Assembly (NCBI GenBank): GCA_036381275.1
Contig: DASVDC010000128.1
Location: 18,667 to 82,666, forward strand
Direction of reading: 5' to 3'
DNA from: Pseudomonadales bacterium
GTDB taxonomy: Bacteria > Pseudomonadota > Gammaproteobacteria > Pseudomonadales > Azotimanducaceae
Length of the DNA stretch: 64,000 nt
The notes under the pieces are model-generated. The model saw only the letters and a list, made by a program, of their open reading frames with translations. It was not told where the DNA came from and ran no database searches. This document shows, piece after piece, positions 27,658 through 34,016 of the stretch; position 1 is the first letter of the stretch; every line of letters starts with the position of its first letter. The position numbers were made by a program, and so were the translations under genes.

Positions 27658-28911
27658 TCAGGCTTGCGCCTCCACCTCGTCCTCGTCGACGAAATCGAGG
27701 TTCACGGTCGCCGGGCTGAGCAGCGTCCCGGTCACGTCCCGCGCGCGGCGCATCGCTCCTTCGCCGAAGCGCTCCGCGACGGCATCGAGCACGGCTTCGA
27801 GACGCCGCTGCCGGGCGCCGTCGTCGAACAGGCCGAGCTGCAGCGGCCGGCCGACGTGCTCGAGATCGAACGCCGCGAGCCCCACCAGCCGGAACGGACC
27901 CGGGTGCGGAAACTTGTCGAGCAGCTCGAGGGCGGCGGCGTACAGGTCACCGCCGGCATCCGTCGGCAGCACGTGCCGCTGCCGCGACAGCAGCTTGAAG
28001 TCGGTGGTCTTCAGCCGGATCCGCACGCCGTGCGCGAGGTATTGCTTGCGCCGCAGGCGCCGGCCGAGCCGATCGGCCGCGCGCGCGAGATGCCGGGCGA
28101 TCTCGCGGCGGTCGGCGATGTCGCGGGTCAGTGTGCGGTCGGAGCCCATGCTGCGCGCCACCCGGCGCCGCGCGACCGGCCGCGGATCCTCGCCGCGGGC
28201 CAGCGCGAGGAAATGAGCGCCGAGATTGCCGAGCGCGTCGAGCTGCTCCGGCGACGCGCGTGTGAGGTCACCGATGCGGTGGAAACCGGCGTCCTGCAGG
28301 CGCTTCTGCGTGACCGGTCCGGCGCCCCAGAGCCGCTCCACCGGCAGCGGGGCGAGCCACTCCGCGGCCCGACCCGGCGGCACGACCTGGATGCCGTTGG
28401 GCTTCGCGAGGCCGCTCGCCACCTTGGCGACGTACTTGGTGCCGGAGATGCCCACCGAGGCCGGAAGCCCCGTGGCGTCGCGAATCGCTTCCCGGAGCCG
28501 AACCGCCATCTTCTCCGGCGGCCCGAACAGGTGCTCGGCGCCGCTCATGTCGACGAACGCCTCGTCCAGGCTGATCGCTTCCACCTTCGGCGAGAAGTCC
28601 GCCAGCACCTGCATCAGCCGCCGGGAGACCGCTTCGTAGCGGTCGAAACGCGGCGGCACCACCACCGCGTGCGGGCAGCGTTCGAGCGCCCACGCCATCG
28701 GCATCGCGCTGCCGACCCCGAACGGGCGGGCTTCGTAGCTGGCGGTCAGCACCACGCCGCGGCCGCTGCGCGGGCCGACCAGCACGGGACGGCCGCGCAG
28801 CGCAGGGTCGTCGAGCTGCTCCACGGCGGCGTAGAACGCATCCATGTCGGCGTGGGCAATGATGGCGGGCCAGGTGCGCGGCAGCATGGCAGGGTCGGCC
28901 TGGACGGACAT
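27658..28911 (-). CDS. dinB: DNA polymerase IV
   Basis: Y-family motifs (IAHADMDAFYAAVE, LSLDEAFVD, SVGISGTKYVAKVAS). Confidence 0.9.
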   Translation of the reverse strand: MSVQADPAMLPRTWPAIIAHADMDAFYAAVEQLDDPALRGRPVLVGPRSGRGVVLTASYEARPFGVGSAMPMAWALERCPHAVVVPPRFDRYEAVSRRLMQVLADFSPKVEAISLDEAFVDMSGAEHLFGPPEKMAVRLREAIRDATGLPASVGISGTKYVAKVASGLAKPNGIQVVPPGRAAEWLAPLPVERLWGAGPVTQKRLQDAGFHRIGDLTRASPEQLDALGNLGAHFLALARGEDPRPVARRRVARSMGSDRTLTRDIADRREIARHLARAADRLGRRLRRKQYLAHGVRIRLKTTDFKLLSRQRHVLPTDAGGDLYAAALELLDKFPHPGPFRLVGLAAFDLEHVGRPLQLGLFDDGARQRRLEAVLDAVAERFGEGAMRRARDVTGTLLSPATVNLDFVDEDEVEAQA

Positions 28912-28917
28912 ACAGTA
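28900..28917 (-). promoter_or_regulatory. SOS (LexA) box-like site overlapping the dinB start codon
   Basis: The minus strand reads TACTGTATGTCCGTCCAG (CTGT-N8-CCAG). The left half-site is perfect. The right half has one mismatch to ACAG, the same CCAG variant I recall in the E. coli dinB box. Confidence 0.45.
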
Positions 28918-31846: not shown

Positions 31847-32344
31847 ATGCGGTGGACCCGCAACCTTCTGCTGGTCGGATCGATGCTGCTGCCTTGCGGC
31901 CCGCTGCTCGACGCGGCGGAACCGGAGACCTCCTCTTCCGCTGAGCCGAACCTGAGCCCGGATGTGCGGGAGCTGCTTCGATCGGAGATGCGGGAGGTCG
32001 CGGCCGGGGTGCAGACCATCGCCGCGGCCCTGCCGATCGGCGGCTGGGAAAGCGTCCACGACACCGCCCGGCGGATCCACGACAGCTACATCATGAATCG
32101 GGCCCTCACCGATGCGCAGGCGCGGGAGCTCGAGCAGGCGTTGCCGGCGCAATTCGTGGCGCTCGATCAGGCACTGCATGCGCGTGCGCTGAAGCTTGCG
32201 GAAGCCGCGCACCAGCACGACGCCGAGCAGGCGGCGTTCCACTTCTCGCGAATGCTGGAGACGTGCGTCGCGTGTCACGCGCAGTTCGCGCACGGCCGGT
32301 TTCCGGGGCTCGAGGCGGTGGAGGCGGTGGAGCATCGTCACTGA
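31847..32344 (+). CDS. cytochrome c'-like (class II, C-terminal CxxCH) protein
   Basis: Signal peptide (RNLLLVGSMLLPCG), a four-helix-like sequence, and a single haem motif CVACH near the C-terminus. Confidence 0.65.
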   Translation: MRWTRNLLLVGSMLLPCGPLLDAAEPETSSSAEPNLSPDVRELLRSEMREVAAGVQTIAAALPIGGWESVHDTARRIHDSYIMNRALTDAQARELEQALPAQFVALDQALHARALKLAEAAHQHDAEQAAFHFSRMLETCVACHAQFAHGRFPGLEAVEAVEHRH

Positions 32345-32422
32345 AGGAGCGCTCGCACAACCGCTTCACTAACAAGATTACAAACGAATAGTCACATCCC
32401 AAGCTTGTTTCCGACGTCTTGT

Positions 32423-32442
32423 TACTGTATATTAATACAGTA
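32423..32442. promoter_or_regulatory. LexA (SOS) box upstream of the integrase gene
   Basis: TACTGTATATTAATACAGTA compared with the E. coli consensus TACTG(TA)5CAGTA. Both half-sites are perfect. The site lies 20 nt upstream of the integrase ATG, just 5' of the GGAGGA RBS. Confidence 0.7.
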
Positions 32443-32462
32443 TCCAAGCGGAGGATCGAAAG

Positions 32463-33683
32463 ATGGGCAGACGCCGCCGTCGCACCTTGCCGAAGTACCT
32501 CGAGCGACATCCCCTGAACGGTTGCTACTATTACAAGAACCCCTCGATGCCTCAGAAGGCGAACCTCGGCACGGTGGAAGCCGACGCCGTCGACGTCGCC
32601 AATCGGCTCAATACCCAGTTCGAGCGCGACCGGTCGAGGCGCGACGCCATCGCCCGAGCCAGTGAGCGACTCGACGGTGTGCGTTTCGAGCCAGCCTTCA
32701 CCGCGTTCGTCGAGAAATACATCCGGGACTATCGCCTCAAGTCCAGCACCGCCGCTCGCCTTCGGCAGCGCCGCGATCGACTCAACGCGCACTTGGGCAA
32801 CACCAGCCTGTCGCTGGTGGACACCCAGGCGCTGCGGGAGGTGATCGCCTCATCCAGCCAATTCGAGCAGACGAAGCTGCGGACGCTGCTGTCCCGATTC
32901 TTCCAGTACGCGATTTCGGTAGGCGCCTATCCCGGTTCTTTCGCGAATCCGGTCGACAACCTCTACGTCGACCCGAATCCTCCCAAGCGGCGAACGCGAA
33001 TGACCCTGGCGCAGTTTCGAGCGATCCACGACGCGGCCCCTGAATGGCTGCAGTGGTTGATGACGCTCGGTATCCATCTGGCGCTGCGACGCGTCGACCT
33101 GGTGAATCTACGCTTCGACGACATCGCCGGTGACCGGATCGTCAGTCCGATCCGCAAGACCGACAGCGACGCCCGCGGCAGCGAGTCGATCAGCGTCGAC
33201 TTTCCGATCCATCGCGACGTTCGTGCGGTATTGATCAAGGCTCGGCGCTCGAGCCTCGCGAACGGCCGCTGCCCATTCATCATCCACCGCACGCCGGACA
33301 GAAAGACCAAGCGCGCCGCGGACGCGATGCGGCTCGGGCGCATGGAACATCCGGCTCAGGTTCTTCCCGAGTATGCGAGCAAGGCCTTCGCGAAGGCTCG
33401 AGCCCTCGCAACCGAGAGGACGACCCACTTCGCCGGCCTCGAAGAGCGGGACATGCCTACGCTGCACGAGATCCGGGCGCTCTCGTCGTACCTGTACGCG
33501 GTGGCGGGTTACGACGTCGATGCGGTGCAAGACCTGATGGCCCACACCGATCCGGACATGACGCGGGCGTATCAGAAGGGGCATGCCCGCAAGGTCGTTC
33601 GGGTCGAGATGATACTGCCGTTCGGCATTCGCGACCCGGACCCGGAGATTCGGGAGGCCCGGGCGCGCTACGCCGTCGCCTAG
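32463..33683 (+). CDS. int: lambda-family tyrosine recombinase / phage integrase
   Basis: The arm-binding N-terminus MGRRRRRTLPKYLERHPLNGCYYYKNP parallels lambda Int. Catalytic signature R (LALRRVDL), HxxR (HEIRALS), H..Y (AHTDPDMTRAY). Confidence 0.9.
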   Translation: MGRRRRRTLPKYLERHPLNGCYYYKNPSMPQKANLGTVEADAVDVANRLNTQFERDRSRRDAIARASERLDGVRFEPAFTAFVEKYIRDYRLKSSTAARLRQRRDRLNAHLGNTSLSLVDTQALREVIASSSQFEQTKLRTLLSRFFQYAISVGAYPGSFANPVDNLYVDPNPPKRRTRMTLAQFRAIHDAAPEWLQWLMTLGIHLALRRVDLVNLRFDDIAGDRIVSPIRKTDSDARGSESISVDFPIHRDVRAVLIKARRSSLANGRCPFIIHRTPDRKTKRAADAMRLGRMEHPAQVLPEYASKAFAKARALATERTTHFAGLEERDMPTLHEIRALSSYLYAVAGYDVDAVQDLMAHTDPDMTRAYQKGHARKVVRVEMILPFGIRDPDPEIREARARYAVA

Positions 33684-33689
33684 AGAGTT

Positions 33690-33711
33690 TTCTCTAAGAA
33701 TTCTCTAAGAG
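33690..33711 (+). repeat. tandem 11-bp direct repeat (possible integrase arm-type sites)
   Basis: TTCTCTAAGAA-TTCTCTAAGAG lies between the integrase stop and the tRNA 3' end. It is preceded by the inverted TAGAGA-gttt-TCTCTA. Confidence 0.5.
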
Positions 33712-33754
33712 CACGACCCAGATGCGTCTTAAGCTATTGAAAATAAAGGGGATT

Positions 33755-33830
<76 letters not shown>

Positions 33831-34016
33831 GTGGGGAGCGTATTGTGCCCAATGCGGTAGGAAATACAAGCGCCTGCCGCCCCTTCGAAGACCGCTCCGC
33901 TGGCGGCGCCGGATAGCCCGCACGGAGTCCTGTCCGACCGCCCTCGCCGCCCGATTGCTCCCGCCGCCCGCGCGGTCTAGTTTGATCGTCCACACCCGGG
34001 AGCGAGGGGCACGACC

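What the first reader, a model, noticed from the sequence alone, without database searches (positions are those of the whole stretch)
32423..32442. Near-consensus LexA box directly upstream of a tRNA-associated lambda-type integrase
TACTGTATATTAATACAGTA has perfect CTGT/ACAG half-sites, including the flanking TA...TA, with the correct 8-bp AT-only spacer. It ends 20 nt before the integrase ATG, just upstream of its GGAGGA RBS. LexA binding there would occlude the promoter or the 5' UTR.

LexA control is well established for integron integrases. It is not the usual arrangement for lambda-family island or prophage integrases, which are normally controlled through repressor/excisionase circuits. 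Here no repressor, Xis or other element genes are visible. A DNA-damage-induced solo recombinase at a tRNA-Gly att site is therefore unusual.
Basis: partly seen in the sequence, partly recalled or inferred. Interest (0 to 1): 0.6.

Follow-up and report, generated by a model that had tools for sequence, protein, structure and literature searches.

The report
SOS-controlled solo integrase at tRNA-Gly
A near-perfect binding site for the DNA-damage repressor LexA sits on the promoter of a lone lambda-type integrase gene next to a glycine tRNA gene, and the same arrangement recurs in about three quarters of related genomes, so this cargo-less recombinase is very probably switched on by DNA damage.

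Summary
TACTGTATATTAATACAGTA lies at 32423-32442, 20 nt before the integrase ATG. It is the best LexA-type site in the whole 4.77-Mb genome (27.1 bits; about 2e-6 such sites expected by chance).

The host has one lexA. CTGT-N8-ACAG-type boxes lie upstream of lexA, recA, imuA-imuB and dinB.

The box overlaps the -10 of a promoter-like frame, TTGTTT-17-TATATT. The 83%-identical relative keeps the same frame.

Of 26 distinct orthologous loci, all at the 3' end of tRNA-Gly(GCC), 19 carry a box of at least 15.8 bits upstream of int. None of 3383 control windows reached 15 bits. Only the half-sites, a -10-like TAT, the RBS and the ATG stay fixed.

The protein is a lambda-Int-type recombinase with an arm-binding domain and intact catalytic residues. 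dN/dS is 0.07-0.21.

It has no Xis, repressor or cargo. In one genus the whole insert is about 1.6 kb between tRNA-Gly and tRNA-Cys, and relatives show intact empty sites.

Verdict: a real, conserved LexA operator on a solo integrase. This extends the integron-type SOS control to a lambda-type, tRNA-linked family. What the induced enzyme recombines is unknown.

The parts
32405..32410 (+). Putative -35 hexamer TTGTTT of the int promoter
   Evidence: Read by eye. The same TTGTTT-17-TAnAnT frame is kept in the 83%-identical relative L079 although the spacer between differs. The tool's stricter consensus scan did not call a promoter here.
32423..32442 (.). LexA (SOS) box TACTGTATATTAATACAGTA
   Evidence: It is the best PSSM site in the genome (27.1 bits). 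Equivalent boxes occur upstream of orthologous int genes.
32428..32433 (+). Putative -10 hexamer TATATT, inside the LexA box
   Evidence: It lies 17 bp after TTGTTT. L079 has TACAAT and L007 has TATACT at the same position in the box.
32451..32456 (+). Ribosome-binding site GGAGGA, 6 nt before the ATG
   Evidence: GGAGG is invariant in the alignment of nine orthologous upstream regions.
32463..33683 (+). int: lambda-type tyrosine integrase, 406 aa
   Evidence: PF00589 and phrog_1 integrase. A family profile matches lambda Int 1z1b residues 9-229, including the arm-binding domain. The AlphaFold model's best PDB matches are full-length lambda Int. R209, K232, H335, H361 and Y370 are invariant and R338 is at least 90% conserved. 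dN/dS is 0.07-0.21.
33681..33710 (+). Putative arm-type Int sites: TAGAGA (inverted), then two tandem 11-bp-spaced copies of TTCTCTAAGA (33690-33699 and 33701-33710)
   Evidence: The double repeat ATTCYCTRAGA x2 sits at a conserved position shortly before the tRNA 3' end (44-64 bp in this window) in all 17 loci printed, whether it falls inside or outside the int ORF. These are the only exact copies in the genome. Int binding is inferred.
33755..33830 (-). tRNA-Gly(GCC), the attachment-site gene; its 3' end faces the int stop codon
   Evidence: ARAGORN. It is the only tRNA-Gly(GCC) found in the assembly. Nearly all orthologous int genes abut the same tRNA.

Best explanation
The palindrome is a functional operator for the host's LexA repressor. 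It sits on the -10 region and transcription start of the int promoter. In undamaged cells LexA occupies it and keeps the integrase gene off. The site is the closest to consensus in the genome, so repression should be tight and induction late.

When DNA damage, or incoming single-stranded DNA, activates RecA, LexA cleaves itself and the promoter opens. A lambda-type tyrosine recombinase is then made. Its arm-binding domain probably recognises the tandem TTCTCTAAGA repeats next to the 3' end of tRNA-Gly(GCC).

The gene is what is left of, or all there ever was of, a very small integrative element: promoter, int, arm sites and the tRNA 3' end. In this genome it has no excisionase, no repressor and no distal att repeat.

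Shown here by computation:
- the site and its rarity;
- the host SOS motif;
- conservation of the box across orthologs;
- the protein's family and its selective constraint;
- the insertion/empty-site polymorphism.

Inferred: LexA binding, SOS induction, the arm sites, and what the induced enzyme recombines.
For: The site and the host motif:
- The site scores 27.1 bits, the best in the genome, with 2e-6 expected by chance.
- There is a single lexA, preceded by three tandem CTGT-type boxes.
- Boxes also precede recA, imuA-imuB, dinB and a radical-SAM gene.
- The lexA genes of five other int-carrying genomes have CTGT-type boxes too.

The promoter:
- The frame TTGTTT-17-TATATT, with the box over the -10, is conserved in L079 as TTGTTT-17-TACAAT.
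- This is the same layout described for intI promoters (PMC3108266, read).

Conservation:
- 19 of 26 distinct orthologous loci carry a box of 15.8-28.7 bits at most about 100 nt before the int start.
- None of 3383 control 250-bp windows reached 15 bits.
- The box occurs in all three clades of the int tree.
- In nine aligned upstream regions the invariant columns cluster in the CTGT/ACAG half-sites with a few spacer T's, a -10-like TAT, GGAGG and the ATG.

The protein is functional:
- Catalytic residues are conserved.
- dN/dS is 0.07-0.21.
- It has the lambda Int fold, including the arm-binding domain.
Against: - There is no experimental evidence of LexA binding or induction.
- The automatic sigma-70 scan called no promoter here, because the -35 matches only 3 of 6 positions.
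- Seven orthologous loci lack the box, so LexA control is not obligatory for the family. Four of them have a PIN or DUF2442 gene directly upstream on the same strand.
- In this genome the enzyme has no visible partner site. No distal att repeat was found, and there are no other copies of the arm motif. Derepression might therefore have no recombination outcome.
Confidence: 0.85

Rival explanations
1. The LexA box is real, but the module is a dead remnant in this genome. The integrase has no substrate left, and the SOS control is a fossil of a once-mobile element with no present function.
For: No distal att repeat was found in the contig. No Xis or cargo is present. No second copy of the arm motif exists in the genome. 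The displaced tRNA fragment has decayed in relatives.
Against: The ORF is intact with all catalytic residues. dN/dS is 0.07-0.21 even between loci whose distal repeat has decayed. The box here matches the consensus at 18 of 20 positions and is conserved while its flanks are not. Int is at least as conserved as the neighbouring UvrC and PgsA.
Confidence: 0.1
2. The palindrome is the operator of another protein, either an element-encoded CI/Cro-type repressor or Int itself, and only resembles a LexA box.
For: Integrase genes are often autoregulated or controlled by element repressors, for example KplE1 intS (PMC2951348, listed).
Against: No repressor gene is near in any locus. The conserved positions are exactly the LexA half-sites, with a free AT-rich spacer. 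The same motif precedes the host's lexA, recA, imuA and dinB. The putative Int arm motif TTCTCTAAGA is a different sequence.
Confidence: 0.03
3. It is a chance AT-rich palindrome in an AT-rich spacer, or an RNA hairpin or terminator of the upstream cytochrome c' gene.
For: The bare 8-base core occurs by chance in 31% of shuffled windows. The spacer is locally AT-rich.
Against: Chance expectation for the full site is 4e-8 in this spacer even at 45% GC. The site recurs in 19 independent loci whose spacer sequences differ and are not self-complementary. No terminator was called there.
Confidence: 0.01

Closest known systems
LexA-repressed integron integrase promoters (intI1, V. cholerae intIA; Guerin et al. 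2009; Cambray et al. 2011, PMC3108266)
   Same: An E. coli-type LexA box overlaps the -10 of a tyrosine-recombinase gene. The box is phylogenetically widespread in the family and has been lost in some lineages. The recombinase stands alone, without an excisionase.
   Different: The protein here is lambda-Int-type with an arm-binding domain, not IntI. Lambda Int gives the top PDB matches, and VchIntIA 2a3v is only rank 16. No NCBIfam model matches. There is no attI or cassette array. The site of action is the 3' end of a tRNA gene.
[quoted passage not shown] 2014, PMC3998124)
   Same: A non-integron integrase gene with a LexA site. That site was shown to bind LexA in vitro. The authors suggested that SOS control may extend to some phage integrases.
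   Different: It is a single Gram-positive metagenomic site bound by B. subtilis LexA, which recognises a different motif. No family-wide conservation, tRNA context or cargo-less architecture was described.
LexA repression of ccrC1 in SCCmec (Liu et al. 2017, PMC5397144)
   Same: The host LexA directly represses the recombinase gene of a chromosomal element, linking DNA damage to its recombination (listed; abstract only read).
   Different: ccrC1 is a serine recombinase in Staphylococcus. The element carries cargo (mecA) and is not tRNA-linked.
Lambda-type tRNA-inserting prophages and genomic islands (lambda Int, PDB 1z1b/5j0n; P4-type islands)
   Same: The fold, the N-terminal arm-binding domain, tandem arm-type repeats beside the core, insertion at a tRNA 3' end, and a displaced tRNA fragment as the distal repeat.
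   Different: Those elements respond to SOS indirectly, through a cleavable element repressor (CI, SetR), and need Xis. Here there is no repressor, Xis or cargo. The whole insert is about 1.6 kb, and host LexA acts directly on Pint.

Membership tests
Gammaproteobacterial LexA operator (SOS box) | 16-bp CTGT-N8-ACAG palindrome with an AT-rich spacer and a high score against known LexA sites | tested here: met
   TACTGTATATTAATACAGTA matches the 20-bp consensus at 18 of 20 positions and scores 27.1 bits.
Gammaproteobacterial LexA operator (SOS box) | The host encodes LexA and uses this motif at core SOS genes | tested here: met
   One lexA (PF01726) with three tandem boxes upstream. Boxes precede recA, imuA-imuB, dinB and a radical-SAM gene.
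Gammaproteobacterial LexA operator (SOS box) | The site lies within or overlaps the promoter of the regulated gene | tested here: inconclusive
   By eye the box covers the -10 of TTGTTT-17-TATATT, a frame conserved in L079. In another clade the box lies 8-9 nt upstream of a conserved TATCCT. The consensus scan called no promoter, and no transcription start site is known.
Gammaproteobacterial LexA operator (SOS box) | Conservation upstream of orthologous genes (phylogenetic footprint) | tested here: met
   19 of 26 distinct loci against 0 of 3383 control windows. The half-sites are invariant in the alignment.
Gammaproteobacterial LexA operator (SOS box) | LexA binding, and RecA/LexA-dependent induction by DNA damage | not testable with these tools
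   This needs EMSA, reporter or RNA work.
Lambda-type (arm-binding) tyrosine integrase | Catalytic R-K-H-R-H-Y residues and the PF00589 domain | tested here: met
   PF00589 at 31.9 bits against a 27.1-bit cut-off. R209, K232, H335, H361 and Y370 are invariant, and R338 is at least 90% conserved, in 30 homologs.
Lambda-type (arm-binding) tyrosine integrase | N-terminal arm-type DNA-binding domain | tested here: met
   The family profile aligns residues 6-226 to lambda Int residues 9-229 (E = 2e-14). The model has a three-stranded sheet plus helix at residues 13-69. Matches include 1z1b over about 400 columns, and 1kjk and 2wcc.
Lambda-type (arm-binding) tyrosine integrase | Arm-type sites beside the core | tested here: inconclusive
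   Conserved tandem 11-bp repeats (TTCTCTAAGA x2, plus an inverted copy) lie shortly before the tRNA 3' end in all loci. Binding was not tested.
Integrative element (prophage / genomic island) at a tRNA gene | Flanking direct repeats (attL/attR) derived from the tRNA 3' end | tested here: not met
   No repeat of 12 nt or more, and no convincing local alignment, was found in the window or contig. In relatives L009, L010, L012 and L016 a decayed 29-30-nt copy is present.
Integrative element (prophage / genomic island) at a tRNA gene | Excisionase, repressor, or cargo/transfer genes | tested here: not met
   The window neighbours are cytochrome c', LysR, ferritin-like, cytochrome c, an ECF sigma factor and dinB on one side, and SnoaL and a symporter on the other. 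Relatives are flanked by tRNA-Cys or housekeeping genes.
Integrative element (prophage / genomic island) at a tRNA gene | Presence/absence polymorphism with intact empty sites | tested here: met
   In one genus 4 of 61 sampled genomes carry int. In 9 of 10 genomes without it, tRNA-Gly and tRNA-Cys lie 12-81 bp apart. In the host's own genus 2 of 19 carry it, and G012 and G018 have tRNA-Gly without int.
Integron (IntI + attI + cassettes) | IntI-family integrase | tested here: not met
   No NCBIfam model matched at E <= 0.01. The structural best hits are lambda Int, and 2a3v (VchIntIA) is rank 16.
Integron (IntI + attI + cassettes) | Adjacent cassette array with attC sites | tested here: not met
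   In relatives the upstream neighbour is tRNA-Cys within about 300 bp. Otherwise it is an ordinary gene. No formal attC search was run.

The most novel reading that the evidence does not exclude
The integrase may no longer be the tool of a mobile element. It may be a retained, host-controlled enzyme. The arguments:
- It persists as a 1.6-kb, cargo-less, Xis-less insert whose distal att copy decays.
- The gene, its arm sites and its LexA operator meanwhile stay under selection.
- Its divergence tracks that of the neighbouring uvrC and pgsA, and it is more conserved than they are at depth.

It could be an SOS-triggered 'gatekeeper' of the tRNA-Gly integration hotspot. In that role it would capture or evict integrase-less DNA carrying a matching site, a lambda-type analogue of the integron platform.

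Alternatively, the module could be the smallest autonomous integrative element known: a promoter, int and att only.
Probability: 0.2. Interest if true: 0.8.

Novelty: new variant of a known kind. Interest (0 to 1): 0.6.

Why it matters
Direct LexA control of a site-specific recombinase is the textbook explanation of how stress speeds up gene capture in integrons. Outside integrons, the literature searched here gave only scattered single cases.

This finding is a whole family of lambda-type, tRNA-linked integrases in which the same control has been kept across at least three clades and several bacterial families. In this family the integrase stands alone.

Two things become testable. First, whether SOS-gated recombination is a general solution to the cost of carrying an active integrase. 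Second, why a cargo-less integrase is kept under purifying selection at a tRNA hotspot that other elements also use. In one relative, a 23.7-kb prophage with an unrelated integrase sits in tandem at the same site.

The family is small, and its sites score highly with a PSSM built from E. coli LexA sites. It therefore looks readily testable in laboratory E. coli.

Tried and rejected
- **Promoter scan.** The automatic promoter/terminator scan of 32300-33900 gave no promoter and no plus-strand terminator. The promoter assignment therefore rests on inspection and on conservation in L079.
- **Distal att repeat.** Exact 12-mers and local alignment found nothing in the window or contig.
- **Left boundary of a possible island.** Same-genus genomes have different genes between dinB and tRNA-Gly, so no boundary could be drawn. 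One relative's stretch is withheld and reads as N.
- **Phage origin.** There are no relatives in IMG/VR. The best phage integrase hit is 30% identical.
- **Distant homologs.** Homologs at 30-37% identity have no LexA box, so the box is specific to this ortholog group.
- **Resident Int serving the tandem element in L016.** Rejected: that 23.7-kb prophage has its own unrelated integrase and a Xis-like gene.
- **Integron reading.** Rejected.
- **Wide taxon samples.** A class-wide sample (0 of 400) and a family sample (1 of 150) gave no further loci.

Full report
**1. The observation**

The window reads TACTGTATATTAATACAGTA at 32423-32442. GGAGGA follows at 32451-32456, and the ATG of a 406-codon ORF (32463-33683) is at 32463. 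The ORF carries the Phage_integrase domain (PF00589). Its stop codon lies 71 bp from the 3' end of tRNA-Gly(GCC), which is at 33755-33830 on the minus strand.

The bare core CTGT-N8-ACAG is weak evidence by itself. It occurs once against 0.35 expected, and 31 of 100 shuffles had a match. The full site is strong evidence:
- The genome is 69% G+C and contains only 15 cores.
The int site gives 27.1 bits, the best site in the 4.77-Mb assembly. The next is 22.0, and only 12 sites reach 12 bits.
- Under the genome's composition, 2e-6 sites of that score are expected. For the 118-bp spacer the figure is 4e-8 even at 45% G+C.

**2. The host's SOS system uses this motif**

- The assembly has one lexA. 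It is preceded by three tandem boxes: CACTGTATGGAGTTTCAGCC, TACTGTATAGACTGACAGGC and CACTGTATGGACGATCAGGC.
- The other top PSSM sites lie before recA, imuA-imuB (two boxes), dinB (inside this window at 28898-28917), a radical-SAM gene and two DUF222/HNH paralogs.
- The lexA genes of five other genomes that carry the integrase also have CTGT-type boxes.
- RecA's best named relatives are MAGs labelled Pseudomonadales.

**3. Position in the promoter**

TTGTTT (32405-32410), a 17-bp spacer and TATATT (32428-33) form a sigma-70-like frame whose -10 lies inside the box. The closest relative (83% identical protein, L079) has TTGTTT-17-TACAAT in the same register. Its box, TACTGTACAATCATACAGCA, lies 19 nt before the ATG, although the sequence between the hexamers differs.

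The automatic scan did not call this promoter, because the -35 matches only 3 of 6 positions. The assignment is therefore an inference. A box over the -10 is the layout reported for intI promoters (PMC3108266).

**4. Conservation**

Orthologs at 56-83% identity came from genome, metagenome and assembly collections. Nearly all abut tRNA-Gly(GCC) in the same orientation.

- 19 of 26 distinct loci have a site of 15.8-28.7 bits upstream of int. None of 3383 control 250-bp windows from the same loci reached 15 bits.
- One example is L084, with TACTGTATATTTATACAGTA at 28.7 bits.
- The box is found in all three clades of the tree. It sits 12-37 nt before the start in the window's clade and in L017, and 55-66 nt before it in a Steroidobacteraceae-labelled clade.
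- In that clade the invariant non-coding columns cluster in the half-sites with some spacer T's, a TAT of a -10-like TATCCT 8-9 nt downstream, GGAGG and the ATG.
- Of the seven box-less loci, four have a PIN or DUF2442 gene directly upstream on the same strand. This suggests promoter replacement.
- Distant homologs at 30-37% identity have no box.

**5. The protein**

- A profile of 30 homologs aligns residues 6-226 to lambda Int residues 9-229, which includes the arm-binding domain.
- The AlphaFold model (pLDDT 74) has an N-terminal three-stranded sheet plus helix. Its best PDB matches are full-length lambda Int. The integron integrase 2a3v is rank 16.
- R209, K232, H335, H361 and Y370 are invariant.
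- Pairwise dN/dS is 0.07-0.21.
- Two tandem copies of TTCTCTAAGA, spaced 11 bp apart, plus an inverted copy at the stop codon, lie at 33681-33710.
- The same double repeat (ATTCYCTRAGA x2) is present in every locus printed, inside or outside the ORF.
- It has no other exact copy in the genome. I read these repeats as arm-type sites.

**6. Architecture**

No Xis, repressor, phage or transfer gene is near. In long contigs of relatives the gene lies between ordinary genes on one side and tRNA-Gly-pgsA-uvrC on the other.

In one genus (L009, L010, L012, L016) the insert is about 1.6 kb between tRNA-Cys and tRNA-Gly. It ends in a decayed 29-30-nt copy of the tRNA-Gly 3' end that runs through the T arm. 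Nine of ten same-genus genomes without int have the two tRNA genes 12-81 bp apart. These are intact empty sites.

The gene is patchy:
- 2 of 19 genomes in the host's genus;
- 4 of 61 and 2 of 61 in two other genera;
- 1 of 150 in one family sample;
- 0 of 400 in a class-wide sample.

Yet Int identity tracks UvrC and PgsA identity across seven loci: r = 0.96 and 0.94 over 21 non-independent pairs. At depth Int is more conserved, at 62-70% against 51-57% for UvrC.

In the window's genome pgsA is followed directly by tRNA-Cys on another contig. The only tRNA-Gly(GCC) is the one beside int. No distal repeat is found.

**7. Mechanism and what remains open**

The best-supported reading is classical. 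LexA represses Pint, and DNA damage or incoming single-stranded DNA derepresses it. That the enzyme is then made is inferred, and its substrate in this genome is unknown.

A fossil reading is weakened by purifying selection and by the near-perfect box. A different-regulator reading and a chance reading are effectively excluded.

**8. Comparison and novelty**

- Direct LexA control is established for integron integrases (PMC3108266).
- It is reported for ccrC1 of SCCmec (PMC5397144).
- It has been shown by EMSA for one gut-metagenome XerD-type phage integrase (PMC3998124).
- Lambda-type elements normally sense SOS through their own repressor.

This is therefore a new variant: a conserved, lambda-type, tRNA-linked, cargo-less integrase family under direct LexA control. 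My four literature searches found no description of such a family. That is not proof of absence.

Noticed in passing
window 28898-28917: A weaker LexA-type site (minus strand TACTGTATGTCCGTCCAGGC, 12.8 bits) overlaps the start codon of dinB (27658-28911, minus strand; IMS family). dinB and tRNA-Gly are also a few kb apart in G012, a genome of the same genus, and near int in L088.
   Followed up: partly
outside the window: genome contigs C143:39463-39482 and C126:2868-2887: Two paralogous DUF222/HNH-endonuclease-like genes are each preceded by a strong LexA box (TACTGTACAAAAAAACAGTA at 22.0 bits; TACTGTATGTCTGTACAGTT at 21.1 bits). They are the next-best SOS sites in the genome after int. The naming is by reading the sequence only; no family search was run.
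   Followed up: no
window 33708-33718 and 33800-33810: An 11-nt stretch of the int-tRNA spacer (AGAGCACGACC) is the exact reverse complement of part of the tRNA-Gly body (GGTCGTGCTCT). In L007 both sides change together (CACAACC / GGTTGTG), with one mismatch. The meaning is unknown: a core-type site, trailer-tRNA pairing, or chance.
   Followed up: no
outside the window: contig C159:471-1300: In this genome pgsA is followed directly by tRNA-Cys with no tRNA-Gly between them, unlike in the relatives. The only tRNA-Gly(GCC) in the assembly is the one next to int. The pgsA flanks carry REP-like palindromes (CTGTGGGAGCGGCCTCCGGCCGCGAA...).
   Followed up: partly
L016 genome (G616:C39:282500-310500): A 23.7-kb prophage-like insert, with an unrelated integrase and an excisionase-like HTH gene, sits in tandem between the LexA-boxed int and the complete tRNA-Gly. 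It is bounded by an identical tRNA 3' half of at least 46 nt that ends in the anticodon loop. L015 shows the same truncation. The tRNA-Gly gene is thus a hotspot used by unrelated integrases at a different sublocation.
   Followed up: partly
L011, L013, L033, L082, L089 (relatives): Toxin-antitoxin-type genes (PIN/VapC, HepT-MNT, DUF2442) are the only accessory genes repeatedly found next to this integrase. Where a PIN or DUF2442 gene lies directly upstream on the same strand, the LexA box is missing.
   Followed up: partly
L067 (G007:C56, same genus): The stretch to the left of the tRNA-Gly remnant in this close relative reads as N (withheld), so that empty or occupied site could not be compared.
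   Followed up: no
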